IMG/VR virus record: IMGVR_UViG_3300032287_003360 | Coordinates: 1 to 56,893 of that record | Strand: one strand, 5' to 3' | DNA length: 56,893 nt | DNA from: a virus | Lineage: Duplodnaviria; Caudoviricetes | Shown: positions 767-52,084 of the stretch, in pieces | Layout: each line of letters begins with the position of its first letter | How positions within the stretch are numbered: the first letter of the stretch is position 1 | The notes under the pieces: model-generated | What the model saw: only the letters and a program-made list of their open reading frames with translations | Database searches by the model: none | What the model was told of the DNA's origin: nothing | Position numbers and translations under genes: made by a program

Positions 767-796
767 GTTACTTTCGAAGTTACTTTCGAAAGTAAC
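767..796. repeat. Chain of GTWAC half-sites at a late gene junction
   Basis: GTTAC-N7-GTTAC-N8-GTAAC. Confidence 0.85.
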
Positions 797-1429
797 CTAG
801 AACCCATTATAGCGACGACGGCGAGAAAACGTCTGCGGAAACCTCCAGCTCTGCGCACGATACACGTTTCCGTGAAGCGTTTCAACATATGCTCTCTGCA
901 CACCAGCTTGAAATTTTCTGGTGTGCAGAACAGACATCTGCGGCGAAGAATACGGTTTGGCAATCTGGCCCATCATCCGACCAAGTACGCCGTCCAAAAT
1001 CTCGATATTGTACTTGCTAAGAACCCAGTCCGGAAATACGGGGTATCCTTCAGCAGTCGTCGGATCTATGACAGTTTTTGCAACAGTCGCGATATAAGTA
1101 TCTGCTGTACTTGGTGCGTATTTGAGAACCAGCTTACCAGGCGTTGGCATATCGCCTTGCTGCTGAATGCTTTGTAGATTCTGCAAGTAAAGCAGCCTGA
1201 CGATCGAACCTCCCTCAGGAACAAGATCGTAAGTGTAGGCGCTCGGATTCTCAAGATACGATGAAGAAGTCGGTTGCACGGCTACCGAAATGTCTTCTGT
1301 CCAGCAGCTCGTCTGCTGAAAGAAATCGTTCATAATCGAAAAGAACTCAAGCTTGAGCACATTATCAAGCGCGCCTGGAAGCTCAATTCTGGCGTTATCC
1401 ATGAGCCGGTTGATGTCTACAGTAGCCAT
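797..1429 (-). CDS. Putative head-tail adaptor / tail tubular A-like protein
   Basis: 210 aa, downstream of the capsid genes; function inferred from size and synteny. Confidence 0.6.
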   Translation of the reverse strand: MATVDINRLMDNARIELPGALDNVLKLEFFSIMNDFFQQTSCWTEDISVAVQPTSSSYLENPSAYTYDLVPEGGSIVRLLYLQNLQSIQQQGDMPTPGKLVLKYAPSTADTYIATVAKTVIDPTTAEGYPVFPDWVLSKYNIEILDGVLGRMMGQIAKPYSSPQMSVLHTRKFQAGVQRAYVETLHGNVYRAQSWRFPQTFSRRRRYNGF

Positions 1430-1436
1430 CAGATCC

Positions 1437-1793
1437 TCATGACTGAATTGTCAGCATCTGCGACGTGAATTTGTTCAAAAACGTCACCGCGCGGGAGTCC
1501 TGAACATTCTCGTCGTCACGAAGTTGTGCCTGCCCGCAGATATAATAGACGAAAGCCACTCTATATTGCGGGTCAATCGAAACAGTTGCAGTAAGGCTGC
1601 CTGCGCTGAAGCTTGGAAGAGATGTCTGAAAAGACCCCTGGAAAAGGTCAGGACGAAGTCTGCGAGCTTCGAGGATGCCCATATTTAGCGCCTCGACAAG
1701 ATCCTCGGTAGGGTAACGGTATGCACCCGAATACGTATCCAAAAGCAACGTCCGAGCTCGATTGACATAATCTTGGACGGTATCAAGGGCCAT
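1437..1793 (-). CDS. Putative head completion/adaptor protein (DUF6682-like)
   Basis: RARTLLLD...RY...L...LN...RRLRPDLF pattern recalled; synteny. Confidence 0.55.
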   Translation of the reverse strand: MALDTVQDYVNRARTLLLDTYSGAYRYPTEDLVEALNMGILEARRLRPDLFQGSFQTSLPSFSAGSLTATVSIDPQYRVAFVYYICGQAQLRDDENVQDSRAVTFLNKFTSQMLTIQS

Positions 1794-1817
1794 CAGTTAC
1801 CTCGAAAAGTAATAAGC

Positions 1818-1840
1818 CGGGGGAGGTTACCCCTCCCCCG
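1818..1840 (-). terminator. Hairpin after capsid decoration gene (possible terminator/attenuator)
   Basis: Minus-strand GC-rich stem (CGGGGGAG/CTCCCCCG) around GTAA, followed by a weak T tract. Confidence 0.45.
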
Positions 1841-1858
1841 AGCAAGTTAGGCGACCTG

Positions 1859-3374: not shown

Positions 3375-4460
3375 TCAACGGATGCGCCCCTCACGCTGTG
3401 CTTCGAAGATCTGCGCTTCGAGTTTCGACTTTTCTGCATCTTTGCCCCGGAAACGCCCGGCGGCAGCATCAGCATAAAAGGCAGCGATTTGTGCGCGTGT
3501 GAAGACTGGCTTCTCAGCGGGAGCGCTTGCGCTTGCCGCAGTCTTGGCTCTGCCCGGTGCCGCCAGGTTCTGGAGCGGGACTTTAGGAACCCTGCTGGTT
3601 CCTACTTCCGGCTCCCGCTTGGCGGGTGACGTGGCAGCCTCTTCAGCGAGGAAGCCGTTGAAGAAGGCCAATACGCGGGAGACATTGCCTTGCGCGTATG
3701 CTGCCTTCAGCATTTCATGACGAATAGCACCAGAAAATGGATCTGGCAACCGTAACCAGTCAAGAAATTCTTCATTATTGTTCAATTCCCGCCAGGCGGG
3801 CAGTTTTTCATCGAGCGTATCGAGGAGTTTCTGCTGCGAATCCTGCTGAACAACGCTGTTGACACCAGTCAGACGGCGTTCAAGATCGGCAATTTTGGCT
3901 TCGTATGCTTTGATAACCGGAGCAAGCTCCTCTTTGGCTTTCTTGCCAACTACCTTGAGGAAGTCCTCGCCATAATCGCGAACTTCATCATCGGTGACCA
4001 GCCGTTCGACCTGAAGCTCAGGAACATTGGTCTGCTGGGGTGCGGTCTGCATTGTAGCGATGACATTCTGGAGCCCCTGAATTTGCTCCGCCATCTCACG
4101 GATCTGTTCCTGCGAACGCATATAGCGCCCGTTAACAGAGTTGTACTTGTGCTCCCAGGACTCGGCATCGGGTTTCTTCGACCGAGTTTCAGAGCGGCGC
4201 TCTTGCTGAGTTTCCTGCTGAGCTTCATGCTGAGCTTCTTGTTGAGCTTCCTGCTGAGCTTCCTGCTGAGCTTCCTGCTGAGCTTCCTGCTCAGCCGAAG
4301 TTTGATCGTCATTCTGAAGTTCTTCTCCGTTACCCTTCGGAGTAACTTCAGAGTTTTCTCCCCTGAGCGAATTGACGATTTGCTCGGAACGAGCTGCTGC
4401 GGCACGGACGGCGGCAGGCAACTTGATGTTCGGATCGTCCTGGAGGGTCTGTTCCTTCAC
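3375..4460 (-). CDS. Capsid scaffolding protein
   Basis: 361 aa, acidic and coiled-coil, directly upstream of the capsid gene, C-terminal AQREGRIR. Confidence 0.8.
   Translation of the reverse strand: MKEQTLQDDPNIKLPAAVRAAAARSEQIVNSLRGENSEVTPKGNGEELQNDDQTSAEQEAQQEAQQEAQQEAQQEAQHEAQQETQQERRSETRSKKPDAESWEHKYNSVNGRYMRSQEQIREMAEQIQGLQNVIATMQTAPQQTNVPELQVERLVTDDEVRDYGEDFLKVVGKKAKEELAPVIKAYEAKIADLERRLTGVNSVVQQDSQQKLLDTLDEKLPAWRELNNNEEFLDWLRLPDPFSGAIRHEMLKAAYAQGNVSRVLAFFNGFLAEEAATSPAKREPEVGTSRVPKVPLQNLAAPGRAKTAASASAPAEKPVFTRAQIAAFYADAAAGRFRGKDAEKSKLEAQIFEAQREGRIR
4204..4287. repeat. 12-bp tandem repeat x7 encoding (QQEA)n in scaffold
   Basis: TGCTGAGCTTCC units with minor variants. Confidence 0.9.
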
Positions 4461-42900: not shown

Positions 42901-44390
42901 GGCGGGACCGCAGGCGCACCCCCCGCCTGCGGTCCCTCTGCGACCGGAGCCGGAGAACTTGCTCCTGGTGCAGTACTCTGAACTTGAGACTGGCGCTCCA
43001 TCTCGCGAAAGCGCGCAAGTTGCTTGATATACTCGCCAGCGGCACCAGGACCAGTTCCGGGAACAGGCGGTTTAGGCGCTTGCGAGGTGTTACCTGTCAA
43101 AGTAACAGCAGCCGTCACGTCGGGCGGTGTATCGCCGACAGTTACACCTGATTTTGCTACTGCTGGCTCACGGGCGGCTGGGCTGACCGGGGCAGGTTGC
43201 GACGGTGTAGTGGTTTGATTTGTAGCGCTGAGAGCTGCTGCTTCGGCGGAGTTAGCACCTTTTTCGGTAATGGGCTCTACCACAGGTGCTTTAGTTTTTT
43301 CTGCGCTAGGCTCACTTCTAGCCGCTCCTACCGCGCCAACACCGCCACCAAGAATCGCGCCAATCAAGGCGTTTTCGGCAGCGCCCTCATTCCACGGCTT
43401 GTCCTCGTAGCCTGCAAGATTCTGAGCAACTTGTGACAGATACTCTTGTACGGCTTCTTCGCCGGAGCTCTCAAGAATTTCGCCAACTTTTTTTACAAGA
43501 GTGTTAGTAGTTTTAAGTTTCAACGGCGCAGGAATATACTTCAGGCCGGTAAGGATCGGCACGACTTCGGATGCGCCGATCAGAGCTCCCCACTGAGCTG
43601 CTTTAAGTGCGTCTTCTTCGTTTGCCCCGGCTTGAACAGCTTCGCGATACATTTGCGAAGATGTGGAAGTTGCGCCCATAGTGCCGCCGACAATTGCACC
43701 GCCAGCAGGACCAGCAGCAACGCCGCCAAGTAGTGTAGCCGCAACAAAGGCCACCATGCTGCCAGCACCTGAAGCAAGCTTCCCAGAAAAACCGGTGTCG
43801 CGAGGATCAGGTTTGCCAATTAAAGTCTCAGCGCTTTCGCGTAGTGCTTTGCCAGCTTGAAAGCCCATAGTCTCGTCGACCGGCGTAGCAAGCTCAGTAT
43901 CTGCCTGTTCTTTTAGGTTTCCAGCCATTTGCATCTGGTTTTCAACCTGGCTCAAACGCATTTTAGCCGCGTTTACACGAGCTTTGGCTTCCCAGTCGCC
44001 TTGATCTGCTTTTGGGCCGTATTCTGTAATAATGCTTTCAAGCTCGGCTTTTTCTTTTGGAAAATCCTGAAGAACTTCTTCTGAACTAGACTGCAAAGTA
44101 CGCAACCGTGTCCGGTTGGCGAGTGCTGCACCTTCCGGAACACCAGCAACAACTTCAGTAGCACCAGCGGCAAACTGCTGACCACGACGTCTAAGCGTCT
44201 GAAGCAGCTTTTCACCGGCAAACGGATCTGGATCGTTTTCTTGCTCGCGAGCAGAAATTGGTACCGCTTCCCGCTTTTGTGGGGCAGTTGCCTCCATAGG
44301 GACGTCGTCGAAACTCAGATCGTCTGGTATCGATGCAGACTTACTGGACTCAGTTTCGAACGGAACGTCATCAAAACTCAGCGAGTCCAT
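36969..44390 (-). CDS. Giant internal virion/ejection (polyvalent) protein
   Basis: 2473 aa; HEGLH zincin motif with downstream EFLSE; YFPMMRYGDY (PLxRFG-like); Gly/Ala hydrophobic stretches; last of the ejection trio. Confidence 0.75.
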   Translation of the reverse strand: MDSLSFDDVPFETESSKSASIPDDLSFDDVPMEATAPQKREAVPISAREQENDPDPFAGEKLLQTLRRRGQQFAAGATEVVAGVPEGAALANRTRLRTLQSSSEEVLQDFPKEKAELESIITEYGPKADQGDWEAKARVNAAKMRLSQVENQMQMAGNLKEQADTELATPVDETMGFQAGKALRESAETLIGKPDPRDTGFSGKLASGAGSMVAFVAATLLGGVAAGPAGGAIVGGTMGATSTSSQMYREAVQAGANEEDALKAAQWGALIGASEVVPILTGLKYIPAPLKLKTTNTLVKKVGEILESSGEEAVQEYLSQVAQNLAGYEDKPWNEGAAENALIGAILGGGVGAVGAARSEPSAEKTKAPVVEPITEKGANSAEAAALSATNQTTTPSQPAPVSPAAREPAVAKSGVTVGDTPPDVTAAVTLTGNTSQAPKPPVPGTGPGAAGEYIKQLARFREMERQSQVQSTAPGASSPAPVAEGPQAGGAPAVPPTSAPAPAPTPEATQAPSAPAEALQRLEEPDPTEAAPTNVAPVEAPFSPVEAVPDVLPSAEQESPVAPAEAPAAPEKRKYRTVTRRDVLLDAGIPAEQYDTMKPKARDRMAADLRAKVQRDTGERLEYMDPAEREQALTKAWTEIQGLRTKAAEKAAADRAERVAKLPPKTQKAAEASKAKEGPAAEDLVAQQKAERQARINAYVEEQRQKAQEETVASPETGKPRILKSVTDEAIRQEAENAIGQREQQEKAEASLREAEARQEAEQERAASGQVEEETLDRASKEGKAETARRVNNKRVADEIIDEHTTNEREDKYRSNGPQGDVARNSILARVKQMAEKTGSRLAPDRSGKVLFDRLKPSADPTLAPNAAQMILWEARKLAGRKNPTLEDFDNFRSAEALLRAGMVKDYLEARGVEGDIASMAKATKTSKTGETDDIIEDIPANNMTPEDNLIARQEGDEDAQAVANDEVADQAPVSGKRQQVTSESNPGYTAVSGNKTAKVVEKVGKGRKKIELSAEDKTKATAAAKALTGAAKAASNASDRPKLALKQDTTVRSDKGNVVLDATPRIISEKMTVAEAMDRLDPGSIKLFGDKNTQKVISAILGRLKEAIPDLPIIIIPHSEMMRITNNGAAAYFDPRPSRFGKSGYIAISTKYAVDGRPRAHLVAHEGLHALFSAALVNDPELHELVTSLGDYVRGSFVTEEAANEHYGLTIDKRTGRVDPHEFLSEALSEPEFQEILRDTPIPDEVAALLRLDKEADKTVWGALRSMVRDVVLSINKALFGDGDGYSVLDAIMEIGGRLDKLGTEIRKRKGDTAVAPGPMSEVRYAKAKNPNVGELIKRGLEPKTARNAAKIIAENFKGGISDADLGAVAQAFRSQPEQKKQSYWTMLRDGGVSQAQAKEINDYLKAEVGKSVDPETVPYLIEEAIKTFGKKDTSESNQADTGVVPPYKEPPSPGMGPSVPKRPEAPAFKGKGESRVARFFRSAALKTMTLDFMRQKFGKLFGTKDGNPLDRFVKAVQRRDNIVDEFAEPLERAGVEFEAFAKKNPEEALEFAQLAVDASRLNVKLGKSQDNSHLGKNATKGLQGKKALDKLNARFENNLSEEGRELYSRLTKLYREAHNANVEALAYNILSQLDTKLSNSDLMDMLKRVVEGRLTEDDAKLINNNTVFRALERAAELKVLKGDYFPMMRYGDYVVTTTEKLTDPGWKTVPLKVTREKNGKTVTTSKDLPVSTEIEGNILRVQVDPTIRGSQTAAKRALREYAASHELTLQNIATMYRDRQTGKLVSNGEQLVDREYDTVYEASFQTEGVHFFESAKEAEEFRKQSDSHITSQVKTRRQYAGEDSISASQLAAIVNHIGGSEKGELRQRMVNLVENAVIAQMSGNRAQKRYLARRNVIGASQDTARAAFTFARAAGNYHATLRTAPEMRKAMQQMVEVEKASKNTNNEAVITDVMNEMRAREANIENPNKPMKWTRDIATLSYFDKLFSPAYSLINSMQPLTTTWPVLAGRYGWDETVKAMGKAYQKVGLRDTVASGAGNTVKATTQFNKSMIDTSDLIGSLRKNLGKEYEALIDEFVERGLLSVDTGLEIGSVIEQGRGAWGRTLHKVDRIGRQLPNSVEVLNRAITAVATYDLALQAKKSKQDAIQEAYNTVSNTQGDYRASNAPNWMKAPGLGWMLQFKKYALLQYQLMSDMTVRAFKDADPAERVIARKQLMHLVSTQALLAGTWGLPGLEIFKLGFMAVSMLAGGEGWDDEEYTLRKMIEDAAGKTLGSVINNGLLSTVTGLDFASRLSLADMITGLPPKSFDADGLMAYAGRTIGGAPGGTVVDWITGTRELVKADSADAREKAIQKLIPNKLIADSVSAYNNYKSGNVGPAGAAAQVFGLRTLERAETGRERGAFKRQGDQRKATEKSLTNDLRAALDRRDRAAELKAIAAIRQYNAELRRKNPNARPVNAAQIRKYWFKDQRK

Positions 44391-47300
44391 CAGAGGCCCT
44401 CAACAGAATAGCCTGCGTCCTGAAGCTTCTTGATTACACCAGCGCGGCTGCGCCCCTCGGCAATTGCCGCTTTTGCCTTCGCCAGCACATCAGGTGGCAC
44501 CGGTTTACCTTTGGAAGTAACCGGTGCGGTCTTATTTTGCAAATACCCAGCTTTGCTACCTACAGGTGCCGCCTGAGCGTCACCGCTAACAGGCGGCGGA
44601 ACTGGATTGGTCGGAATTGCTTCTTCGCCAGTGCCCTCTTCGCCAGGCATAGGAGCGCCAAAGCTTCTATCAATCGAGTCAATGATGACTTGGAGCGTTT
44701 CCGGATCGTTGTCTTGAAACGCTTTCTGCCATGCCCGTTTCTGCCCGGCAGTCATCTGCGGGGCGTAAGCGTCGTACAACTCGTTAAGCGTACCCGCCCG
44801 GCGCGTGCGCTTATCAAGATCGCGCTGCTCCTGAGCAGTGCGGTTTTTCTCGGTACGCTCGTCGACCGCTTGGTTTTGCTCCTGGAAACGCTTGTCAGAA
44901 CGAGTGTTCTCACGCCGCCTATCGACATTTGCCATAATGTCGTCAAGCGCTTCGGGATCAACTTCTTCAACAGCGGCGTCCCACTGCTCCCTTTCACTTG
45001 GCGTCATATCCGCTTCGTAATCGGCGCGCAGCTTAACCTTACCGTTTACGCGGCGCTGACGCTTTGCGAGATCTTTTTCTTCGGCTTCTTTGCTGCGCTT
45101 ATCGATACGCTCTTCGCTGGCGTCGAGGCGCTTATCAAGATTGGCTTCGGTAGCCTTGCGGCCTTCTTCAAGACGACGATCAATGATTTCGTCGCGTTTG
45201 GTCTGAGTTTTCTCTTTGGCTTTCTCGCGGCGACGAAATTGCACATTCCCGATGATTTTGTTAAGCGTTTCGTAGTCTCCGTCTTCGACCGCAGCGCTCC
45301 ACGCTTCGATCTCGCCAGGATCCATATCTTGCTCCATATCGGGAAGAAGCTTATCAAGGTTGCTCGCCCGCGCTTTAGCCCGTTCCTCTTTGCGGGCAGA
45401 AGCGGAAGCAGAAGCCGACGTGCCAGGTTCGGCTACGTTCATCAAGGCCTCAAAGTAACCCGAGCCCGCCGAAATGCCAGTAGCCATTTGGAAGACCTGC
45501 TGCGGTGTCAGCATATGCTGATCAACTACATCGCCACTTTCGTTGGTGCGCGTGACCTGGTATCCGCCGCTAACAGGCTGAACGTCTGCATTCAATCCAT
45601 CAGGAACAGCATCATATGCTTTGATTGCATACTTAACCATACCATCTACGTCGCCGTTTTTGCCCGCTTGCACGGCTTCGTAGCCATACCGGCGTGACAG
45701 CAAGTTCGAATACTGAATAAGCGCTCCAGCCCATTTGCCCGCTTTGTCGACGTCGCCACGCTTCAGGTAGAACTCCACGCCTTTCTGCATAGCGTAGACC
45801 GTGCGCATGCTATCTTCGATCTCGCCATTAGGGTCTACCAACTGGTAAATTTGCTGAACTTCTTGCGAAGTCGGCGGACCTTCATTTGGAGCGATTGCTC
45901 CGTTTACCAACTTGCGTTGCTTGTTCCGTAAATCGGGATCAGGACCAATAGCAGACCCGCTGCGATCGAGGCCCAGTGACTTGGTGAGATGCTTCAAGCC
46001 GAGATCAATAGCCTTGCCAACACTTACACTTTCGCCAGCGGGGCGTTCGCGTTGGTCCATTGCCAAGGCGTTGCGGTTAGCGTTACGGTTGGCATCGCTC
46101 CGGTTACTTGCCGGAGTAACCGGAATTGCTTGAGCAGGTGCTTCTTCGAGCTGGTTATCGGTTTCTTCCATTGGTGCCGAGGCAACAGTACCGCCATCGG
46201 CAAACATACCAATGCTTTTTTTGTTACCTGGTTTTTTCGGAAAACCACCCAAGCCACCCAAGCCACCAAAGCCACTGAGGATAGAAGGTTTGTTGGATGG
46301 AGGTTTAGAAGGCTTTTTGTTCGGAGGTTTGAAACTTCCATCAATCATGTAGTCAATAACAGAAGGTTTGTTGGATGGAGGTTTAGAAGGCTTTTTGTTC
46401 GGAAGTTGGAAGTTTTCAGCAAGCATGTAGTCAATAACAGAAGGTTTGTTGCCCTGTGACCCAGAGTGAATACTGTCTGTAATACTGTTTATAATATTGT
46501 TAGATTTCTGGGGTTTTTTATCTTCCGCAACGTCTGGCACATCTGCAACAGCCCCAACAGTCTGCTGCGGACGCCAAACACCCAAAGAGTTTGTCGGTCT
46601 AACAACGCGCGAAACTTCGTCTGCCCACGGTACAGTAGTCGTAGAAGCCGAGTACGGTGCATCGAGTGGAATAGCTTCTACCGGCGCAGGCGCAGGTATT
46701 GGTCCAGTCCGAGGATCACGCGGGGGTATCCATGGGTTTTTTTTCTTGGGCGACTTACCCAATGAAGGCTTGGGACGGACCATGGGCTTGGGACGGACCA
46801 TGGGCTTGGTCTGCCGTGATGGTACAGACATACCACGGGCCGCATACAGGGTAGGAGTCCCGGTCAGATCGCCCGGCTTGTAGAGTTTTGCGCCTTCCGG
46901 AATATCGATCGCAGAAATATCATTTGACGCATCACGCGAGCTTTCAAGTAAGTCATCTGCCTGATAAGGATCTTCGCTTGAACCTTCAGCAGGGGCACTT
47001 TCTGGATTGCCCGCTACTTCAGTATTACTAGAGCCGGGAGGAGACCATTCAGTGTAGCTGGAAGGAATAGCGCTATCGCCCTGCGGGCTACCTTTGCCAA
47101 TATCAAAACCATAGAAGCTGGCAATCTGGGTCGCAGCTTCCATACCCGTAGATTTAATACCGTTTACGGCAAGTCCCTTTTGAACTTGCCTGGCAAGCTT
47201 GTCGCTACCCTTACCCGTCAAAAGGTAGGTCGCTCCACCGAGCCCTTGCTGGTGTGCCAAAGCGAGTTCGCCATAAGTTGGCTCGCGACCAAGTGTTTTT

Positions 47301-47743
47301 TTAAGTCCTGCCCGGTTGTCTTCTGTAAGCTTGACAAACGCTTGCGTGTTCAACGCAGGATCGCTACGCGCATCACCGCTCTGACTGACAAGGCCGTAAT
47401 TTGTTCCCGTTCCTTTGGTGAACTGAAACAGGCCTGTTGCACCAGTGGGCGACACCGCCGAAGGGTTGTACGTGCTTTCCTTATACGCCATACGATAAGC
47501 GTATGGACGCAAATCCTCCGGAACATTTGCGTCAATAACTTTCTTTATGCCATCTGGAGGATCGTAGTATTTGCCACTAGTTTTGCCGACACCGGGGCCG
47601 AACGTACCCGGCGAACTTTTCTTAGCGGCATCGAAATCAAACGTATTTTTCCGGTTGTCAATGCGGTCGCGAATACCCCGAGAAACGCTCGAAGTTGCCT
47701 GGAACGCCGAAAAGAAATCCCGCATCTCAGCAGCGAAAGACAT
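44390..47743 (-). CDS. Internal virion protein with N-terminal lytic transglycosylase
   Basis: KESTYNPSAVS..GATGLFQF SLT motifs; 1117 aa. Confidence 0.8.
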   Translation of the reverse strand: MSFAAEMRDFFSAFQATSSVSRGIRDRIDNRKNTFDFDAAKKSSPGTFGPGVGKTSGKYYDPPDGIKKVIDANVPEDLRPYAYRMAYKESTYNPSAVSPTGATGLFQFTKGTGTNYGLVSQSGDARSDPALNTQAFVKLTEDNRAGLKKTLGREPTYGELALAHQQGLGGATYLLTGKGSDKLARQVQKGLAVNGIKSTGMEAATQIASFYGFDIGKGSPQGDSAIPSSYTEWSPPGSSNTEVAGNPESAPAEGSSEDPYQADDLLESSRDASNDISAIDIPEGAKLYKPGDLTGTPTLYAARGMSVPSRQTKPMVRPKPMVRPKPSLGKSPKKKNPWIPPRDPRTGPIPAPAPVEAIPLDAPYSASTTTVPWADEVSRVVRPTNSLGVWRPQQTVGAVADVPDVAEDKKPQKSNNIINSITDSIHSGSQGNKPSVIDYMLAENFQLPNKKPSKPPSNKPSVIDYMIDGSFKPPNKKPSKPPSNKPSILSGFGGLGGLGGFPKKPGNKKSIGMFADGGTVASAPMEETDNQLEEAPAQAIPVTPASNRSDANRNANRNALAMDQRERPAGESVSVGKAIDLGLKHLTKSLGLDRSGSAIGPDPDLRNKQRKLVNGAIAPNEGPPTSQEVQQIYQLVDPNGEIEDSMRTVYAMQKGVEFYLKRGDVDKAGKWAGALIQYSNLLSRRYGYEAVQAGKNGDVDGMVKYAIKAYDAVPDGLNADVQPVSGGYQVTRTNESGDVVDQHMLTPQQVFQMATGISAGSGYFEALMNVAEPGTSASASASARKEERAKARASNLDKLLPDMEQDMDPGEIEAWSAAVEDGDYETLNKIIGNVQFRRREKAKEKTQTKRDEIIDRRLEEGRKATEANLDKRLDASEERIDKRSKEAEEKDLAKRQRRVNGKVKLRADYEADMTPSEREQWDAAVEEVDPEALDDIMANVDRRRENTRSDKRFQEQNQAVDERTEKNRTAQEQRDLDKRTRRAGTLNELYDAYAPQMTAGQKRAWQKAFQDNDPETLQVIIDSIDRSFGAPMPGEEGTGEEAIPTNPVPPPVSGDAQAAPVGSKAGYLQNKTAPVTSKGKPVPPDVLAKAKAAIAEGRSRAGVIKKLQDAGYSVEGL
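46283..46450. repeat. 78-bp-period duplication (KKPSKPPSNKPSVIDYM)
   Basis: 46283-46325 = 46361-46403; 46346-46372 = 46424-46450. Confidence 0.85.
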
Positions 47744-47751
47744 ACTTTACC

Positions 47752-48852
47752 TCACACAGGCAGGGCAGCCGGAACGTTACCCGGCGGCTGATAACTTGGC
47801 TTTGCAGGAGCTGTATCCTTCTGTTTGCGACTCTGGTCAATCAGCTTCTGAAAAAATTCTTCGCCTTTCCACTTAGCAACGTCGGCGGGGACAACAAACT
47901 CGTCGGTGTTAAGACGAACCTCCTGGCCAGTCTGATTGACGCGCGCTGGAATATCGTCAATAGCCGCGCCACGACTTGGAGACAGTGCCGGATCCAACCT
48001 ACCTCCAGAAGTAACTTCGTCTGGAACAGCACCGCCTTCGGAAAGAAACGCCGGAATAATGCCAAGTACACCCCCGACAAGGCTGCCAATGCCAGAGCTA
48101 GACTGCTGATTGGCTTGGTACTGCGCAAGCTGATTCTGATACCCCATGTTAAGCGTATTGCCCCAGATACCCAGCGCCTGATTACCCAGTGCCTGATACT
48201 GAGGAGCTGTACCCATAGCGTTTGCACCAGCCGAGTAATTGGCAAGCTGCGAGTTAACTGCCTGATTGCCCGACTGAAGCGCTACACCATAAGTACCGGC
48301 AACCTGCCCAGGATACCCACGGCCTACGTTGATTGCTTCCGAACGTAGTGCGCGTCCCACAGCTTCAGTTTGCGCACGAGCTTGGTTGGCAGCACCAGCT
48401 TGAGCAGCAGCACTCTGAATACGCGCATTCGAGTCTAATGCTGCAAACCGCGTATCTGACGGGTTGATACCAAAGCTTTCAAGCTGCTGACGAGCATTAC
48501 GGCGCTGCAACTCCATAGCCTGTGCCACTTCAGCGGAAGCACGACCCATTTCAAGCTGCTGCCGCTCGGGGGACGCATAGCTGCGCGCTTCTGCGATAGC
48601 TGTATCTTCGAGCGGCTGATAAAGACCTTCGTAACGAGCCCGATCTGCCTGAGCCGACTGATCGTTGATTTCTTGGCGACGAAGCGAAGAACCGACAACC
48701 GTATCTACAAGCTCGCGATTGCGGCCATATTCTTCACGCGCCCAGGCAAGCTGTTCGCGACCAAGCTTGTAGGAAAGCTGAGCAGATTCCTTACTGGCTG
48801 CTGCAATAGGGCCATAATCCGGCGGATCAGGCGCATTGTTTTTACCACCCAT
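47752..48852 (-). CDS. Putative pilot/ejection protein
   Basis: MGGK..AP.PPDY N-terminus; Gln/Ala-rich; hydrophobic segment; DDIPAR...EFVVPA. Confidence 0.7.
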   Translation of the reverse strand: MGGKNNAPDPPDYGPIAAASKESAQLSYKLGREQLAWAREEYGRNRELVDTVVGSSLRRQEINDQSAQADRARYEGLYQPLEDTAIAEARSYASPERQQLEMGRASAEVAQAMELQRRNARQQLESFGINPSDTRFAALDSNARIQSAAAQAGAANQARAQTEAVGRALRSEAINVGRGYPGQVAGTYGVALQSGNQAVNSQLANYSAGANAMGTAPQYQALGNQALGIWGNTLNMGYQNQLAQYQANQQSSSGIGSLVGGVLGIIPAFLSEGGAVPDEVTSGGRLDPALSPSRGAAIDDIPARVNQTGQEVRLNTDEFVVPADVAKWKGEEFFQKLIDQSRKQKDTAPAKPSYQPPGNVPAALPV

Positions 48853-48855
48853 GAC

Positions 48856-49296
48856 TCAAGCTCCCCGCAGCGACCGCAAAGAACGCGGTTTCATTTTTAG
48901 CCACCGGCATTCCTCTGGTGTAATTGCCAAAACCAGACATGCCCCCTCTGGATAAGCATCATCGATCTTAGCTATGATCTTAAACCCGAGCTTTAGGTCA
49001 ATTTCAAGTGCTTTTATGTTGCTCTCGCAAACTTGACCAAAAACCTTCTTGCAACCTAGCTGATTAAATGGGTAGTCAAACACGCACCAGATCAGATCAC
49101 GCGTCGCCCAGTTATCTACAAAACCCGCCATATGGAGGTGAATACTCGCCCCGGTAAAGCATGTGAAGATTACTCCGCCAAGTAACCAGCCTTTATCGTC
49201 AACGCGGGAAATCACTCTGTCGCATACCGGATTGTAGTAGCAGCGAGCAGCATTGGCTATGGCATGCCCATGTTCTTCTTCCTGAAAAACAATCAT
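48856..49296 (-). CDS. GNAT-fold protein (T7 gp13-like position)
   Basis: FDYPFNQLG...N.KA....KLGF. Confidence 0.8.
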   Translation of the reverse strand: MIVFQEEEHGHAIANAARCYYNPVCDRVISRVDDKGWLLGGVIFTCFTGASIHLHMAGFVDNWATRDLIWCVFDYPFNQLGCKKVFGQVCESNIKALEIDLKLGFKIIAKIDDAYPEGACLVLAITPEECRWLKMKPRSLRSLRGA

Positions 49297-49553
49297 CCCA
49301 GCACCTGCCAATAACCATTACGATAGCAGTGCAACTTGTTCTCGTCGCTCTTAATCCAAAAATCACCGGTCTGGAGATTGTTGAACCGCTCCCTAGGTTC
49401 AGTATCCTGAACGTAGACCGCAGGCGAACCAAGCGATTGCCCTTGCCGCTGACCAGTCAGAGTCTCTAAGATTTGCTTCATGGCGCGTAGCGCAGTAGAC
49501 ATGCTTTTTATGTCGCCATCAGTAAACTCCGGGATACCAACTGACTTAGACAC
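49293..49553 (-). CDS. Small virion-module protein
   Basis: 86 aa, coupled to neighbours. Confidence 0.65.
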   Translation of the reverse strand: MSKSVGIPEFTDGDIKSMSTALRAMKQILETLTGQRQGQSLGSPAVYVQDTEPRERFNNLQTGDFWIKSDENKLHCYRNGYWQVLG

Positions 49554-51696
49554 TTATAAGCTCCTTGGCCGCCGTGGCGACTTCGACGTTGTTCACCTGG
49601 ACACGAGCTTCGACTTCGATTTGCCACCAGGTAGCTTTGAACCCAGAAGGCAACCGGAACAGCTCATTCGACACTCTAAGCTCGCGGGAATAAACCAGAC
49701 GATCATCCGCGTAAACCCGAACAATCCCCCACATATTAGAAGCAAGCGTAGTGGGATTAACTACCGGGATAGGGTTAAGTGTCGGTGTATCGGCATACGT
49801 CGAAAACCGAACCCGCATAGCTTCTAGGTTGCGCTGGTTTACCATTTCGAAGATCTTCGAGCGCCATTTATAAGGTTCATGGGGCCGGTCATAGGACAGA
49901 TCCAACCAATAAACCTGTCCGTTCCGGATAATGAAAATCTCATTTGTCCAAATATCAGTAGAAGTGTTTACTGTTTCGACACTTGTGCTTAGCAAGTTAA
50001 ATGCAACCCGGTTACTAGTAAGGTCGACAAAAATACCACGATACGAACCGTCGTAATTATCCAGCTCAAAAGCAGTTGTCTCGAACGCAGTTTCTTCGAA
50101 GACTCCAGGTTGAATAGCTCCCCATCCATAATACGCTCCGCCAAGCTGGCATGCGCGCAAAGTAACTGTGCTGACAAGTTGTCCCCAGCGATCCTTTGTA
50201 ATAAGATCGCGTGTAATTATGGAAACATCACCAGGGGTCGCTATAGCCAATCCGTTAGGTGAGCAGTAAACAACTCCGCTTGTAGTCGAAACAATAGAGC
50301 CCTTAGAAATACAAGGCTCAACTCGCTTCAAACGAGAAACGGCCATCTGGCTAGGATTGATACCTGTAACAGCGTAAGGCGTACTATTAGTTAGCACCAT
50401 CAGCGTCTGCCCAACTACACCAAGGCCGACAATGTCAGCATCAAATGTGAGCGTGTAGGGGGCAGGCCATGCGTGTAAACGATATGGTTCGCAAAACCAT
50501 ACCTCGCGCTTGCGAAATCCCGCAACCATGCCGTTTGACATGGATGTAATACCTTTCATATCAGCGGGAGGAGGAGCCCAATAATAGCTTTCGAGAATAG
50601 CAGCGTCACTAACTACATCGTCAGGCTTTGTATCTGTATATAGAAGAGTCGCAACAGGCAGCTCATCCACGTAGAAATATGTCGTAGCGCCGCCAGAGCC
50701 CGTCACAGTGCGGTAGATGCGCGCCTTGGTAATGTTACGGTCTGCGTTCTCTGCACTCGTCGGCGCGGTAATCTTTACGTACCACGGATCTCCAGACCAA
50801 CCACTGCTGCTAGTAGCAGGAGAAGGAGGACCTTCTTCGCCGTATTCCGAAACCCAAGTGTATACATATGCGCGTACTTCAAGAACACCTTGTCCGGTGT
50901 AATTTGGCTTTCCTTCGATCGATGGCGGAACACCGATGGTCAACCTACCGTCATCTGCAATAGTGATACGGTTTGTCGGTGTACCATTGGTATAGCGTAG
51001 CTCGGCAGAGAAACCTTTAGTGGTGTACTGGTTAACTGGACCACCAGATTGAACAGGTGTCGATTTATCAATATCCCGAGTGAAGCCACTTGTAGTCAAT
51101 AACGGACGAGTTGCACCAAAAGAACCATAGTTAATGCTCGGGATAACTGTCCCGTCGTAGAACGAGTTTCTATCGACGTTATAGGTCATCGTCTCGTAAA
51201 GAGCCGCTGCGCCACCAGCCAGTTTGTAAGAAATAGACGCGCAATCGAAGTAATAGGTTGAATTGATCCAAGAAACGCGAGGAGCAACTGTCGGAGCCGG
51301 AATACCTAGTTTTAGCGGCGCATTAACTCCAGAATTACCGTTTATAATCCGCGCCTTGGTATTATAGCGAGGTACGTCAACATTATTCGCCCAATAAAAA
51401 CGATCGAACGAGTCGTCTGCAACAGGAGAGCTAATTACATCTGTATCGCGATCAGAAAACTCCAACCAGTACGAATCAACAATACGGCTTTTATCATAGT
51501 ATTCAATCGGAATACGAAAAACACGCGTAGTCCCCAAGCTGGTAAGTGTATAGACCGATTTAGGTTCGCGAATACCCTCAAGAACTCCGGCAAACAACCA
51601 AGTATTTTGGCTGAGCTCCGCCTGGTTTTCCGGCAGCAGACGCGGGTCCACTGCCGGAATCATGCCGCCAAACTCTTTCAGCTTAAATGCGACCAC
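49546..51696 (-). CDS. Tail nozzle / tubular B-like (stabilization) protein
   Basis: FGGMIP..DPRLLP N-terminus; YVYTWV...GEEGPPS; WRSKIF; beta-rich. Confidence 0.75.
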   Translation of the reverse strand: MVAFKLKEFGGMIPAVDPRLLPENQAELSQNTWLFAGVLEGIREPKSVYTLTSLGTTRVFRIPIEYYDKSRIVDSYWLEFSDRDTDVISSPVADDSFDRFYWANNVDVPRYNTKARIINGNSGVNAPLKLGIPAPTVAPRVSWINSTYYFDCASISYKLAGGAAALYETMTYNVDRNSFYDGTVIPSINYGSFGATRPLLTTSGFTRDIDKSTPVQSGGPVNQYTTKGFSAELRYTNGTPTNRITIADDGRLTIGVPPSIEGKPNYTGQGVLEVRAYVYTWVSEYGEEGPPSPATSSSGWSGDPWYVKITAPTSAENADRNITKARIYRTVTGSGGATTYFYVDELPVATLLYTDTKPDDVVSDAAILESYYWAPPPADMKGITSMSNGMVAGFRKREVWFCEPYRLHAWPAPYTLTFDADIVGLGVVGQTLMVLTNSTPYAVTGINPSQMAVSRLKRVEPCISKGSIVSTTSGVVYCSPNGLAIATPGDVSIITRDLITKDRWGQLVSTVTLRACQLGGAYYGWGAIQPGVFEETAFETTAFELDNYDGSYRGIFVDLTSNRVAFNLLSTSVETVNTSTDIWTNEIFIIRNGQVYWLDLSYDRPHEPYKWRSKIFEMVNQRNLEAMRVRFSTYADTPTLNPIPVVNPTTLASNMWGIVRVYADDRLVYSRELRVSNELFRLPSGFKATWWQIEVEARVQVNNVEVATAAKELISV

Positions 51697-51718
51697 AGCG
51701 CGCTCCTGGCTTGCGTGC

Positions 51719-52039
51719 TTATTTGTCTTCCTTAGCTAGATATTCCCGAGTCCTGGCCAAAGCAGCAGCGCCAGCCTGCATCTCAAGCATTGTCGTTGCA
51801 CTGACAAAGGCAGTCTCTTCGGCTGCTGAAACAGTCCGTTCGGCTGCTGAAACAGTCCGTTCGGCTGCTGAAACAGTCCGTTCGGCTGCTGAAACAGTCT
51901 GTTCAGGCGCCGGGACAGGATCTTCGAGAATTTCAGAAGGGACAATCAGCACGTCGCCGACGGGCTCGGCCAAAGCCTCGATAATAGCTTCCGGGGATTT
52001 GTCGACAGTCGCTTCAATAGTCTTGGGGGCTTTCGCCAT
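51719..52039 (-). CDS. Acidic hypothetical protein with heptad repeats
   Basis: 106 aa, AAGGAG RBS. Confidence 0.7.
   Translation of the reverse strand: MAKAPKTIEATVDKSPEAIIEALAEPVGDVLIVPSEILEDPVPAPEQTVSAAERTVSAAERTVSAAERTVSAAEETAFVSATTMLEMQAGAAALARTREYLAKEDK
51818..51899. repeat. 21-bp tandem repeat x~4 (RTVSAAE)
   Basis: TTCGGCTGCTGAAACAGTCCG. Confidence 0.9.
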
Positions 52040-52053
52040 TTGGGGTCTCCTTG

Positions 52054-52084
52054 GTTACTTCGAAAAGTTACTTCACAGAGTAAT
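52054..52084. repeat. Triple half-site chain at a late gene junction
   Basis: GTTAC-N8-GTTAC-N8-GTAAT. Confidence 0.85.

What the first reader, a model, noticed from the sequence alone, without database searches (positions are those of the whole stretch)
767..52084. Genome-wide 18-bp element GTWAC-N8-GTWAC with 13-bp phasing
Seen: exact pairs start at 779, 4329, 12387, 12807, 12820, 13779, 13792, 15077, 15439, 16726, 16917, 17523, 18083, 18610, 18857, 19927, 20642, 21106, 21630, 23075, 26317, 28595, 30055, 30892, 31894, 37531, 41430, 43089, 46103 and 52054 (30 by manual count). Uniform base composition would give about 0.2. A similar number of near or N7 variants also occur (e.g. 1796, 8519, 10495, 13036, 24026, 24941, 29696, 34930, 36732, 44504, 49169). 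The spacer usually starts with T and ends with a purine. Copies lie inside essential genes on both strands, leaving VTS/EVT peptide scars. They occur in palindromic and direct forms and chain with a 13-bp period. Inference: direct forms cannot fold as hairpins, so this looks like a DNA site for a phage protein that binds or polymerises along the whole genome. Possible roles are stoperator-like repression, genome organisation or ejection, recombination, or programmed nicking. Known analogues (mycobacteriophage L5 stoperators, cluster K start-associated sequences) differ in sequence.
Basis: partly seen in the sequence, partly recalled or inferred. Interest (0 to 1): 0.92.

Follow-up and report, generated by a model that had tools for sequence, protein, structure and literature searches.

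The report
Genome-wide paired GTWAC sites in a phage
This phage and its relatives carry dozens of copies of an 18-base two-part DNA word, packed mostly between their early genes, which looks like the landing site of an unidentified DNA-binding protein that may switch whole blocks of phage genes.

Summary
GTWAC-N8-GTWAC occurs 30 times at exactly the listed coordinates, against 0.07 in shuffles. GTWAC spacings spike only at 13 bp. Twelve intragenic copies compare with 1.1 in codon-preserving shuffles.

The window is a complete 56.9-kb podophage genome, distantly related to HMO-2011-type phages. The element is family-wide. Rhizobium phage RHph_TM27A has 25 copies, and other lineages carry their own versions. 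Pentamers are 87% conserved against 69% for flanks at alignable sites. The element is absent from a presumptive host chromosome.

Sites are densest in the early small-gene block (3.7/kb). They often span stop codon, RBS and start codon.

Base pairing is not what is selected. The doubly changed, pairing form is the rarest (7 of 255). Mirror positions are less complementary than independence predicts.

The best reading (about 0.5) is a two-half-site dsDNA site for a symmetric, probably phage-encoded, dimer acting as a genome-wide operator or roadblock. No binder was found. An mRNA or translation role (about 0.2) remains open. This is a new variant of the stoperator and start-associated-sequence kind.

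The parts
779..796 (-). exact site, perfect 18-bp palindrome. Member of the 3-pentamer array 767-796, between the stop of gene 797-1429 and the RBS of gene 312-752
1796..1813 (-). 1-mismatch site (ATTAC left pentamer), ATG 2 nt downstream (gene 1437-1793)
4329..4346 (-). exact site inside gene 3375-4460 (VTPKGN)
10495..10512 (+). 1-mismatch site in the non-coding regulatory region
10923..10940 (+). 1-mismatch site. Its left arm also pairs with 10961-10974 in a longer inverted repeat just before the RBS of ORF 10990-11214
   Evidence: read from the sequence
12387..12404 (+). exact site inside the conserved first early gene 12037-12810
12807..12837 (+). 3-pentamer array (exact sites 12807 and 12820). 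The TAA stop of gene 12037-12810 lies in the first pentamer. Near-perfect palindrome, MFE -13.0
13036..13053 (+). 1-mismatch site with AGGAGG in the spacer, ATG 0 nt downstream
13546..13563 (+). 1-mismatch site, ATG 3 nt downstream
13779..13809 (+). 3-pentamer array (exact sites 13779 and 13792). Stop codon in the first pentamer, AGGAGG in the second spacer, ATG 3 nt downstream
14278..14295 (+). 1-mismatch site, ATG 3 nt downstream
14520..14550 (+). 3-pentamer array of two 1-mismatch sites, ATG 0 nt downstream
15077..15120 (+). 4-pentamer array (exact site 15077 plus 1-mismatch sites 15090 and 15103), ATG 1 nt downstream
15439..15456 (+). exact direct site spanning the TAA stop, AGGAGG and then ATG at 0 nt
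15722..15739 (+). 1-mismatch site (CTTAC), ATG 0 nt downstream
16726..16743 (+). exact direct site spanning the TAA stop, AGGAGG and then ATG at 0 nt
16917..16934 (+). exact direct site at a gene end
17523..17540 (+). exact direct site, stop in the left pentamer, ATG 2 nt downstream
17785..17802 (+). 1-mismatch site at a junction of the tandem paralogue block, ATG 2 nt downstream
18083..18100 (+). exact site at a paralogue junction, TGA stop in the spacer, ATG 2 nt downstream
18354..18371 (+). 1-mismatch site at a paralogue junction, ATG 2 nt downstream
18610..18627 (+). exact site at a paralogue junction, ATG 2 nt downstream
18857..18874 (+). exact site at the end of the last paralogue. Position and motif are kept in relative G004
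19321..19364 (+). array after gene 18986-19324. The stretch 19333-19364 is a 14-bp-stem perfect palindrome centred on a GTAAT pentamer; one search gives MFE -18.8 for 19334-19363
19927..19944 (+). exact site at a gene end
20642..20659 (+). exact site inside the ATPase gene 19970-21055 (VTLSGN). Kept in G004
21106..21123 (+). exact site inside gene 21052-21462
21630..21647 (+). exact intergenic site upstream of the DUF2201 gene
23075..23092 (+). exact direct site with the stop codon in the right pentamer
24026..24043 (+). 1-mismatch site 3 nt upstream of the DNA polymerase ATG
26317..26334 (+). exact site 4 nt upstream of the likely true ATG (26339) of dCMP deaminase. Natural variants carry a 13-nt duplication that adds a pentamer
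28595..28612 (+). exact site inside the SNF2 helicase gene (VTLGGN). Kept in G004 and lost in G001 by a synonymous change
30055..30072 (+). exact direct site with the helicase stop codon in the left pentamer. Kept in G004
30892..30909 (+). exact direct site, stop in the left pentamer, ATG 3 nt downstream (352-aa gene)
31894..31911 (+). exact site inside gene 30913-31971. Kept in G004
37531..37548 (-). exact site inside the 2473-aa virion protein gene
41430..41447 (-). exact site inside the 2473-aa gene
43089..43106 (-). exact site inside the 2473-aa gene. Both pentamers are kept in G004 while 5 of 8 spacer bases differ
46103..46120 (-). exact site inside the 1117-aa gene
52054..52084 (-). 3-pentamer array (exact site 52054 plus 1-mismatch site 52067) between the stop of gene 52084-52563 and the RBS of gene 51719-52039
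14841..56640 (.). the other one-mismatch N8 sites, mostly intragenic. Starts: 11996, 14841, 16196, 19589, 23692, 24941, 27349, 27903, 29696, 31306, 34930, 36732, 39241, 40071, 44504, 49169, 54027, 56623. About 5 of the 35 one-mismatch sites are expected by chance

Best explanation
The element is a two-half-site recognition sequence on double-stranded DNA. Its idealised form in this phage is GTTACTTC-NN-GAAGTAAC. A sequence-specific protein, most likely phage-encoded, binds it as a symmetric dimer, one subunit per half-site.

About 30 strong and about 30 weaker sites are spread over the genome. They are packed into the early small-gene block, where they fill the short stop-codon/RBS/start-codon junctions.

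I infer that the bound protein acts as a genome-wide operator or roadblock that throttles host-RNA-polymerase transcription. The effect would be graded by site density: early block first, replication genes next, structural genes least. Neighbouring pentamers 13 bp apart would allow cooperative arrays.

Shown:
- the enrichment
- conservation of the pentamers
- lineage-specific symmetric versions in relatives
- independence of the two half-sites
- absence from one presumptive host genome

Inferred:
- that the ligand is a protein on dsDNA
- that the protein is phage-encoded
- that the effect is on transcription
For: 1. Real and selected.
- 30 sites against 0.07 in shuffles.
- 12 intragenic sites against 1.1 in codon-preserving shuffles.
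- The sites impose codons such as GTT-ACT and TTA-CTT.
- In 11 sites alignable to relatives G004 and G001, pentamer bases are 96/110 identical. Spacer bases are 60/88 identical and flank bases 305/440.
- 6 of the 11 sites alignable to G004 keep the exact motif there, while none of the 2 alignable to G001 does.

2. Inverted half-sites that vary independently.
- Over 255 exact sites in 35 sequences, the centre letters of the two pentamers are TA 166, AA 48, TT 34 and AT 7.
- By my arithmetic, independent flips at q = 0.19 predict 168 for TA, 78 for AA plus TT (82 observed) and 9 for AT.
- The AT class would restore a base pair, yet it is the rarest.
- The 135 intragenic sites alone give TA 99, TT 26, AA 5 and AT 5.

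3. Complementarity is not selected.
- Within genomes, mirror positions are less complementary than independence predicts. Positions (3,16) give 129 against 140.9 expected (lower-tail P = 0.0012). Positions (7,12) give 101 against 115.1 (lower-tail P = 0.001).
- The same holds for intragenic sites.
- This fits additive half-site affinity, with one good half compensating a weak one.
- There is no family-wide excess of G.U over C.A: TG 40 against CA 35 over all sites, and 23:15 and 25:25 in intragenic sites.

4. Direct forms do not fold, with MFE about 0.

5. Each lineage has its own symmetric version, which is what a co-evolving protein and site would give:
- TTACCT..AGGTAA
- TTACTC..GAGTAA
- TACCTC-N-GAGGTA
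- TTACCG..CGGTAA
- TAACTG..CAGTTA
- TACTGT..ACAGTA
- TGCTC..AGCAA

6. Phage-specific. In a Bradyrhizobium assembly of 8.7 Mb, 6 of 13 N8 matches and 5 of 6 TTACC-N6-GGTAA matches lie on the 60.5-kb phage-like contig.

7. Intragenic sites make up about 40% of the exact sites. They have no purpose in a pure translation-start model.

8. The flanks carry no conserved -10 or -35 box and no T-run. That argues against a promoter or a terminator.

9. Density falls from 3.67/kb in the early block to 1.14/kb in the replication genes and 0.4 to 0.6/kb in the structural arms.
Against: - No DNA-binding protein was found. Pfam and PHROGs scans of about 60 window proteins gave no HTH or RHH hit.
- The one widely conserved early protein (12037-12810) folds as an all-alpha orphan with no PDB match. 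Its pLDDT is 85 and the best Foldseek E-value is 0.7.
- The sites are tied to translation signals. 18 of 65 have an ATG 0 to 4 nt downstream, against a background of 1.8% for 0 to 12 nt. The upstream stop codon lies in the left pentamer in 7 exact sites. AGGAGG sits in the spacer.
- In the window the element is polar with transcription. All 12 direct forms are sense-oriented. ATTAC outnumbers GTAAT 11 to 2. T.G outnumbers C.A about 15 to 2. Coding constraints explain this only in part.
- Three arrays are long near-perfect palindromes whose two spacers are reverse complements of each other, with MFE -13 to -19. That looks like selection for a real hairpin at those places.
- N7 forms coexist with N8 forms: 8 against 25 exact in RHph_TM27A. 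A rigid dimer would tolerate this poorly.
- A pentamer centre-to-centre distance of 13 bp is not one helical turn.
- The transcription-roadblock function is pure inference. No expression data exist, and no RNA run was listed.
Confidence: 0.5

Rival explanations
1. The element works in mRNA as a start-associated translational operator. A phage or host RNA-binding factor, or the ribosome itself, would recognise the element around the Shine-Dalgarno sequence. It would then set or time the translation of early and middle genes, or enforce coupling between adjacent cistrons.
For: - 18 of 65 sites have an ATG 0 to 4 nt downstream.
- AGGAGG or GAGG sits in the spacer or right arm, at good spacing from the ATG.
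- The upstream stop codon lies inside the site.
- Sites are densest in the non-structural early block.
- In the window the element is polar with the sense strand.
- In several lineages the left arm resembles an anti-SD sequence and the right arm an SD sequence (CCTC..GAGG, CTCC..GGAG).
- It shares position, embedded stop codon, SD content and absence from the host with the cluster K start-associated sequences (passages of PMC3203893).
Against: - About 40% of exact sites are inside genes, far from any start. They are selected (12 against 1.1) and partly conserved in position.
- The half-sites are inverted, not direct. A symmetric RNA binder on single-stranded RNA would see direct repeats.
- There is no pairing selection and no family-wide G.U over C.A asymmetry.
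- Some sites lie after the last gene of a block, or between a stop codon and a separate RBS (779, 52054, 18857).
Confidence: 0.2
2. The element is a structural hairpin in RNA or single-stranded DNA. It would serve as a processing, stabilising or terminating stem-loop whose base is GUUAC/GUAAC.
For: - The palindromic forms fold weakly, at -3.4 to -5.6 kcal/mol.
- Three arrays form 12- to 14-bp stems at -13 to -19 kcal/mol, with spacers that are reverse complements of each other.
- N7, N8 and longer versions coexist.
- Inner stem letters change symmetrically between lineages.
- GTWAC sits in the loops of terminator-like hairpins.
Against: - 12 of 30 exact sites do not fold at all, with MFE about 0.
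- The doubly changed, pairing class is the rarest: 7 of 255.
- Complementarity is below independence within genomes.
- The stem sequence is fixed within a genome rather than free to covary.
- There is no T-run after the sites.
- Rfam gave no match.
Confidence: 0.08
3. The element serves recombination, replication or DNA marking. Options are a micro-homology linker for shuffling early-gene cassettes, a priming or loading site, or a target of a phage nickase or modifying enzyme.
For: - Sites flank nearly every small early gene, in a hypervariable block that is not conserved at the DNA level in relatives.
- A 13-nt tandem duplication sits at a site in 3 of 4 runs. One variant contig breaks off exactly at 15439, and others at 15738 and 15743.
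- The mean spacing, about one site per 0.9 kb, is of Okazaki-fragment scale.
Against: - Only 3 to 4 of the 24 loose ends shown lie near a site, and about 2 are expected (my count).
- HSP ends do not pile up at sites: 2 of 23, against a background of 9%.
- The paralogue deletion 18158 to 18430 lies within gene bodies, not at sites.
- A palindromic nick site would give double-strand breaks.
- Lone GTWAC pentamers occur at about the composition-expected number. I count 103 unpaired against about 102 expected by my arithmetic from the base counts. So a pentamer-targeting enzyme is unlikely.
Confidence: 0.1
4. The element is a promoter for a phage-redirected or phage-encoded RNA polymerase (middle or late promoter).
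For: - The copy number of 30 to 60 and the sense orientation in the window resemble phage-specific promoter sets.
- Sites precede many genes.
Against: - The core is symmetric.
- Sites end 0 to 4 nt before the ATG and contain the SD sequence, so transcripts started there would lack it.
- There is no conserved flanking box.
- No RNA polymerase or sigma factor was recognised in the genome.
- The giant virion protein has no PDB sequence match.
- Many sites are inside genes.
Confidence: 0.04
5. The element is a binding site for a host transcription factor or nucleoid protein that the phage exploits.
For: The outer GTTAC/GTAAC is shared by lineages that probably infect different Alphaproteobacteria.
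Against: - There is no enrichment in the 8.6 Mb of a Bradyrhizobium assembly outside the phage-like contig. Seven N8 matches compare with 22 for the control pattern. One TTACC-N6-GGTAA match lies outside that contig.
- The inner half-site differs between related phages.
Confidence: 0.05

Closest known systems
Stoperators of cluster A mycobacteriophages (L5, TipsytheTRex). I read passages of PMC9283540.
   Same: - More than twenty copies of one short site spread over the phage genome.
- Sites lie in promoter regions and in short intergenic spaces.
- Site orientation correlates with the direction of transcription.
- The sites are proposed to stop elongating RNA polymerase.
   Different: - Stoperators are asymmetric 13-mers bound by a monomeric two-domain immunity repressor of temperate phages.
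- Here the site is an 18-bp inverted repeat of two half-sites.
- About 40% of exact copies are inside genes.
- No repressor or integrase is recognised in this genome.
- The polarity seen in the window is not seen family-wide.
Start-associated sequences (SAS and ESAS) of cluster K mycobacteriophages. I read passages of PMC3203893.
   Same: - A repeated motif a few nt upstream of start codons, mostly ATG.
- It contains a Shine-Dalgarno core.
- The upstream stop codon can lie inside it.
- It is confined to or enriched in the non-structural part of the genome.
- It is absent from the host genome.
- Its function and binder are unknown.
- ESAS add imperfect inverted repeats with a variable spacer.
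   Different: - SAS is an asymmetric 13-mer that is almost never inside genes.
- The present element is a bipartite palindrome.
- It chains at 13 bp.
- It also occurs in structural genes and after gene ends.
- It belongs to a Gram-negative podophage family.
Classical dimeric phage repressor or LexA-type operators, that is short inverted half-sites with a fixed spacer. The tolerance of two spacer lengths by the phage 16-3 C repressor is relevant. All of this is recalled and comes from no call.
   Same: - 16- to 18-bp inverted repeat.
- Half-sites of 5 to 8 bp.
- A minor class with a spacer one base shorter.
   Different: - Classical operators number 2 to 6 per genome and sit at promoters.
- Here there are about 60 sites, at gene junctions and inside genes.
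Promoter-stem-loop cassettes (PeSL) of T4-type phages.
   Same: Repeated regulatory elements flanking small early genes in a hyperplastic region.
   Different: - PeSLs contain sigma-70 promoters and real stem-loops.
- No promoter boxes flank the present sites.
- Most units do not fold.

Membership tests
Stoperator system (cluster A mycobacteriophages) | Asymmetric 13-bp site bound by a monomer | tested here: not met
   The site is an 18-bp inverted repeat. The half-sites vary independently.
Stoperator system (cluster A mycobacteriophages) | Many copies genome-wide, enriched in short intergenic spaces | tested here: met
   There are 30 exact and 35 one-mismatch sites. 18 of the 30 exact sites overlap junctions that make up about 6.5% of the genome.
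Stoperator system (cluster A mycobacteriophages) | Orientation tied to the direction of transcription | tested here: inconclusive
   In the window all 12 direct forms are sense-oriented and ATTAC outnumbers GTAAT 11 to 2. Coding constraints can produce this. Relatives show no polarity: TG 40 against CA 35, and AA 48 against TT 34.
Stoperator system (cluster A mycobacteriophages) | Cognate immunity repressor in a temperate phage | tested here: not met
   Pfam and PHROGs gave no integrase or repressor hit among about 60 window proteins. One distant relative does look integrated next to a tyrosine integrase.
Start-associated sequences (cluster K mycobacteriophages) | Motif within a few nt of the start codon of the downstream gene | tested here: inconclusive
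   This holds for 18 of 65 sites, with an ATG 0 to 4 nt downstream. It does not hold for the intragenic or gene-end sites.
Start-associated sequences (cluster K mycobacteriophages) | Asymmetric single 13-mer of the published consensus | tested here: not met
   The sequence and architecture differ. The window consensus comes and the SAS consensus from passages of PMC3203893.
Start-associated sequences (cluster K mycobacteriophages) | Absent from the host genome | tested here: met
   This was tested only for a relative's presumptive host. In the Bradyrhizobium assembly, 5 of 6 TTACC-N6-GGTAA matches and 6 of 13 N8 matches lie on the phage-like contig. The host of the window phage is unknown.
Intrinsic terminator or structural hairpin repeat (REP-like) | A stable stem maintained by compensatory changes, followed by a T-run for terminators | tested here: not met
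   MFE is 0 to -5.6 kcal/mol. The compensated class is the rarest. Complementarity is below independence. There is no T enrichment downstream. Three arrays are exceptions.
Phage-specific promoter | Asymmetric consensus at a fixed distance upstream of transcript starts, with a cognate polymerase or sigma factor | tested here: not met
   The core is symmetric and abuts the ATG, with the SD inside it. No polymerase or sigma factor was recognised. Transcript starts are not testable here, because no RNA run was listed.

The most novel reading that the evidence does not exclude
A large podophage family spans freshwater and soil relatives of the abundant marine HMO-2011-type phages. In this family each lineage may tag its genome with its own 13- to 18-bp palindromic word. 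That word would co-evolve with a still unknown, fold-orphan phage DNA-binding protein. The pair would form a lytic-phage counterpart of the stoperator system: a single protein that gates whole transcription units, or marks self DNA, through dozens of sites. Those sites are woven into stop codons, ribosome-binding sites and even protein-coding sequence.
Probability: 0.3. Interest if true: 0.8.

Novelty: new variant of a known kind. Interest (0 to 1): 0.62.

Why it matters
If the element is a genome-wide operator set, it would reveal how a polymerase-less lytic podophage family times its genes. Members of that family are among the most abundant marine phages. The mechanism would be unlike the textbook promoter cascades.

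It would also point to a new DNA-binding protein family with lineage-specific, re-programmable specificity.

The sites shape protein sequences (the VT..GN and LL..VT scars), stop codons and ribosome-binding sites. They are therefore a clean case of overlapping codes.

The question is directly testable. Rhizobium phage RHph_TM27A carries 25 exact copies and was deposited as an isolate on Rhizobium phaseoli.

Practically, the motif helps to correct gene starts. The dCMP deaminase start at 26339 is an example. It also helps to recognise members of this family in metagenomes.

Tried and rejected
- **Nucleotide search of named phages** with window 12000-20000 found nothing.
- **Literature.**
  - No paper holds 'RHph_TM27A'.
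  - The search 'GTTAC + GTAAC + phage' gave 11 papers, of which 9 were listed. None was on this motif by title or abstract.
  - A broad five-term search was too unspecific to be useful.
  - The main HMO-2011-type paper (PMC9038755) has no occurrence of palindrom, inverted repeat, promoter, stem-loop or RNA polymerase in its main text (find mode).
  - A search for 'RHph / Rhizobium phage' listed nothing on such a motif.
  - Supplements were not seen and could hold motif tables.
- **RNA and expression.** No RNA holder was listed, so expression could not be examined.
- **Read laying** gave contigs only, from 4 freshwater runs. It listed 40 of 379 differences, so a SNP-density test on the motif was not possible. 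No pile-up of molecule ends was reported, but contigs cannot show nicks.
- **Sigma-70 and terminator scan** of 7500-20000 found 14 promoter-like sites against 8.3 in shuffles, and 14 terminator-like sites against 13.0. Neither is informative.
- **Mosaic-joint test.** The early block is not alignable to the available relatives. HSP ends lie near sites in 2 of 23 cases, against a background of 9%.
- **Binder hunt.**
  - Pfam and PHROGs found no DNA-binding domain.
  - The protein atlas gave only 'hypothetical protein' clusters for the 352-aa and 257-aa proteins.
  - The AlphaFold model of the 257-aa early protein (pLDDT 85.3) has no PDB fold match, with a best E-value of 0.7.
  - By eye, the conserved 136-aa protein 30149-30559 has a coiled-coil followed by a beta-rich part. 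I judged it an unlikely site-specific binder and did not fold it.
- **Giant 2473-aa protein as a virion RNA polymerase.** It has no PDB sequence match. PHROGs gave only unknown-function and DarB-like families. I dropped the idea.
- **RNA families.** Rfam gave 0 matches and there are 0 tRNAs.
- **Sense-strand G.U excess.** I first took the excess in the window as evidence for an RNA hairpin. I rejected this after the family-wide and intragenic counts.

Full report
**1. What the window is**

The window is a complete virus record of 56,893 bp with 123-bp direct terminal repeats and 53% G+C.

Its genes form two transcription blocks.
- One block runs on the minus strand from about 8030 down to 1, and on across the ends from 56893 down to 36969. 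It holds the structural and lysis genes. These include:
  - portal, 5904-7907
  - capsid, 2347-3348
  - internal virion proteins
  - a 2473-aa giant protein
  - an endolysin-like protein
- The other block runs on the plus strand from 8078 to 36909. In order, it holds:
  - the terminase
  - a 1.8-kb non-coding control region
  - about 25 small early genes
  - the replication genes: a MoxR-like ATPase, a DUF2201/VWA protein, DNA polymerase A, dCMP deaminase, an exonuclease, a VRR-NUC nuclease, an SNF2 helicase and a primase-helicase

No RNA polymerase, sigma factor, integrase or repressor was recognised.

The nearest named phages are:
- Rhizobium phages of the RHph_TM27A group, with portal 65% and primase 38.5% identical
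- more distantly, HMO-2011-type marine phages, with portal 22 to 25% identical

The same DNA, or close strains of it, occurs in freshwater metagenome runs.

**2.

- Dinucleotide shuffles give 0.07.
- The histogram of GTWAC spacings has one spike, with 30 pairs at 13 and at most 4 at any other distance.
- One-mismatch forms number 35 for N8, against 4 to 12 for other spacers.
- Unpaired pentamers number 103. By my arithmetic from the base counts, composition predicts about 102 pentamers in all. So the selected unit is the pair, not the pentamer.
- With protein sequences and codon usage held fixed, 300 shuffles give 1.1 intragenic sites (maximum 5), against 12 observed.
- Five of the junction sites lie in a block of tandem paralogous genes, 17543-18869. 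They are therefore not independent in origin.

**3. Anatomy**

Read on the sense strand, the consensus is GTWAC-T-T-(C/T)-NNN-A-R-GTAAC. This is an 8+2+8 palindrome, GTTACTTC-NN-GAAGTAAC.

Eighteen exact sites are inverted. Twelve are direct, and all twelve read GTAAC..GTAAC on the sense strand.

The left pentamer is the looser one, with ATTAC 11 times and CTTAC 4 times among the one-mismatch sites.

Sites are densest in the early block. There are 3.67 per kb at 12.0-19.4 kb, 1.14 per kb in the replication genes and 0.4 to 0.6 per kb in the structural arms.

At junctions the element is woven into the translation signals.
- The TAA of the upstream gene lies in the left pentamer in 7 exact sites.
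- AGGAGG often fills the spacer.
- An ATG follows within 0 to 4 nt in 18 of 65 sites. The background is 1.8% of positions for 0 to 12 nt.

Intragenic copies use the two frames that avoid an in-frame TAA. They give VT..(G/S)N or LL..VT.

Pentamers chain at 13 bp in arrays of 3 to 4. In three freshwater populations a 13-nt duplication adds one more pentamer at 26324.

**4. Relatives**

The same element is enriched in every sizeable relative examined.

| Record | Length | Exact sites |
|---|---|---|
| IMG/VR contig G001 | 43.7 kb | 11 |
| IMG/VR contig G004 | 33.1 kb | 11 |
| IMG/VR contig G003 | 11.8 kb | 3 |
| RHph_TM27A | 60.9 kb | 25 |

The backwards control pattern gave 0 in all of these.

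RHph_TM27A prefers GTTACC..GGTAAC. It also has 8 exact N7 forms.

Across 160 further loci the exact pattern is present in many but not all.

De novo counting shows that lineages lacking it carry a related symmetric word instead. Searches show:
- TTACTC[4]GAGTAA
- TACCTC-N-GAGGTA
- TTACCG[3]CGGTAA
- TAACTG[4]CAGTTA
- TACTGT[3]ACAGTA
- TGTGTAT[5]ATACACA

A probably integrated relative next to a tyrosine integrase in a Rhodospirillales MAG contig has TGCTC-N5-AGCAA 17 times.

Of the 11 window sites alignable to G004, 6 keep the exact motif there; none of the 2 alignable to G001 does. Over 11 sites with alignable flanks in G004 and G001, the ten pentamer bases are 87% identical, against 68% for spacers and 69% for flanks.

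In a Bradyrhizobium assembly holding a 60.5-kb phage-like contig, the motif is essentially confined to that contig.

**5. Hairpin or protein site?**

This was the key question, and I changed my mind during the work.

The window alone suggested an RNA hairpin.
- It shows sense polarity.
- U.G is allowed but C.A is rare.
- N7 and N8 variants coexist.
- Mismatches fray at the terminal pair.

Three tests speak against pairing as the selected property.

(a) Direct forms have an MFE of about 0, and palindromic forms only -3.4 to -5.6 kcal/mol.

(b) The centre letters of the two pentamers give an orientation-free test.
- Over 255 sites they are TA 166, AA+TT 82 and AT 7.
- AT would pair as well as TA does, yet it is the rarest class.
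- Independent flips of each half-site at q = 0.19 predict 168, 78 and 9 (my arithmetic).
- The 135 intragenic sites give 99, 31 and 5.

(c) Within genomes, mirror positions are less complementary than shuffling the right halves among sites predicts.
- A site with a poor half tends to have a good other half.
- This is the signature of additive binding energy.
- Family-wide there is no excess of T.G over C.A.

Inverted half-sites that vary independently are what a symmetric dimer on double-stranded DNA sees.

The window's polarity can largely be traced to coding.
- A stop codon needs TAA in the left pentamer.
- The SD sequence needs purines on the right.
- In the common frame, the base after the left pentamer is a synonymous third position (ACT). 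Its mirror base is a first codon position (GGT or AGT).

I regard this explanation as partial, and I list the polarity as unexplained.

**6. What does not fit**

- Three arrays are long near-perfect palindromes centred on the middle pentamer: 767-796, 12807-12837 and 19333-19364. Their two spacers are reverse complements of each other, and their MFE is -13 to -19 kcal/mol. Here a real hairpin or cruciform seems to be selected.
- GTWAC also sits in the loop of terminator-like GC-rich hairpins, in the window at 1820-1840 and 31979-32006 and in relatives.
- N7 forms coexist with N8 forms.
- No binder was found.

**7. Mechanism proposed**

A phage-encoded dimer binds the sites on dsDNA.

The sites fill almost every junction of the early operon, thin out through the replication genes and are rare in late genes. 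As the protein accumulates it would therefore silence or throttle transcription in that order, by blocking elongating host RNA polymerase or by occluding local promoters.

Arrays at 13-bp phase would give cooperative, high-occupancy stops at block boundaries: after gene 12037-12810, after 18986-19324, at 767-796 and at 52054-52084.

The binding to dsDNA is inferred from statistics. The transcriptional effect is inferred from location only.

The chief rival is an mRNA-level, start-associated role like that proposed for the cluster K SAS. Both could hold if the site was built into the ribosome-binding region.

**8. Comparison with known systems**

The element works like stoperators in number, intergenic location and presumed roadblock action. 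It fails their defining features: it is not an asymmetric 13-mer, there is no monomeric immunity repressor, and the phage is not recognisably temperate (PMC9283540 passages).

It resembles SAS and ESAS in position, SD content, embedded stop codons and absence from the host. It differs from them in symmetry, in chaining and in its many intragenic copies (PMC3203893 passages).

I found no description of this motif. The searches are named under Tried and rejected, and supplements were not seen.

**9. Verdict**

This is a real, selected, family-wide element with lineage-specific sequence. It is most likely a protein-binding DNA site whose function is not yet shown.

I rate it a new variant of a known kind, with interest 0.62.

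Noticed in passing
window 10238-12036: A 1.8-kb non-coding control region follows the terminase gene. It holds a GC-rich terminator-like hairpin (10259-10280), an AT-rich stretch (about 10330-10400), C-rich and G-rich runs (10425-10470), three exact 21-bp tandem repeats (11550-11611) and a sigma-70-like TTGACA-17-TATATC (about 11678-11706). It looks like the early promoter and origin region.
   Followed up: partly
window 17543-18869: A run of five small tandem genes; four are paralogues by BLASTP (33 to 60% identical) and 17805-18095 gave no hit at E 1e-3. All five end in a similar ...LL(E/S) C-terminus that is encoded by the motif itself. All four freshwater runs carry a variant that skips 271 nt (18158 to 18430), fusing two neighbouring paralogues.
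   Followed up: partly
window 26317-26341: Three of four freshwater runs have a 13-nt tandem duplication behind 26324, which adds a pentamer in phase. It would shift the frame of the long ORF call. The dCMP deaminase therefore most likely starts at the ATG at 26339.
   Followed up: yes
window 31979-32012; G004 13505-13535: An intrinsic-terminator-like hairpin with a T-run follows the 352-aa gene and carries GTAAC in its loop. The orthologous hairpin in G004 has a different stem but GTTAC at its centre.
   Followed up: partly
window 36969-44390 (-): A 2473-aa virion-block protein has no Pfam hit and no PDB sequence match. Its C-terminal third matches large unknown PHROGs and a 'DarB-like antirestriction' family.
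   Followed up: partly
window 19970-22933, 30587-30895: A MoxR-like ATPase (phrog_1297) is paired with a DUF2201 metallopeptidase-like/VWA protein, and there is an N4 gp49-family protein. This gene set is shared with N4-like phages according to the family names.
   Followed up: no
window 19409-19735: A small zinc-ribbon protein matches the Lar restriction-alleviation family (E = 5.7e-8). It lies just after the long palindromic array at 19333-19364.
   Followed up: no
G007:C12, about 12-65 kb (loci L183, L186-L190): A relative (portal 56% identical) lies inside a 137.8-kb Rhodospirillales MAG contig. Its flanks have higher G+C (0.66 to 0.68 against 0.62), with a xylose-isomerase-like gene on one side and a tyrosine integrase on the other. 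It is probably an integrated prophage, so the wider family may include temperate members.
   Followed up: partly
G006:C42 (locus L182): A Bradyrhizobium isolate assembly contains a 60,568-bp contig that is the same size as a full phage genome of this family. It is also listed in IMG/VR. It may be a carried or episomal phage.
   Followed up: no
window 4204-4295, 46283-46451, 51811-51904: There are in-frame tandem repeats inside structural genes: 12 bp x 7.7, 78 bp x 2.2 and 21 bp x 4.5.
   Followed up: no
locus L023, e.g. 3356-3374, 3520-3538, 3944-3962: In this relative the element has shrunk to a 13-bp perfect palindrome, TACCTC-G-GAGGTA. It is repeated almost identically and often sits 3 to 4 nt before an ATG. 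Its right half is a full Shine-Dalgarno sequence and its left half is the complement of that.
   Followed up: partly
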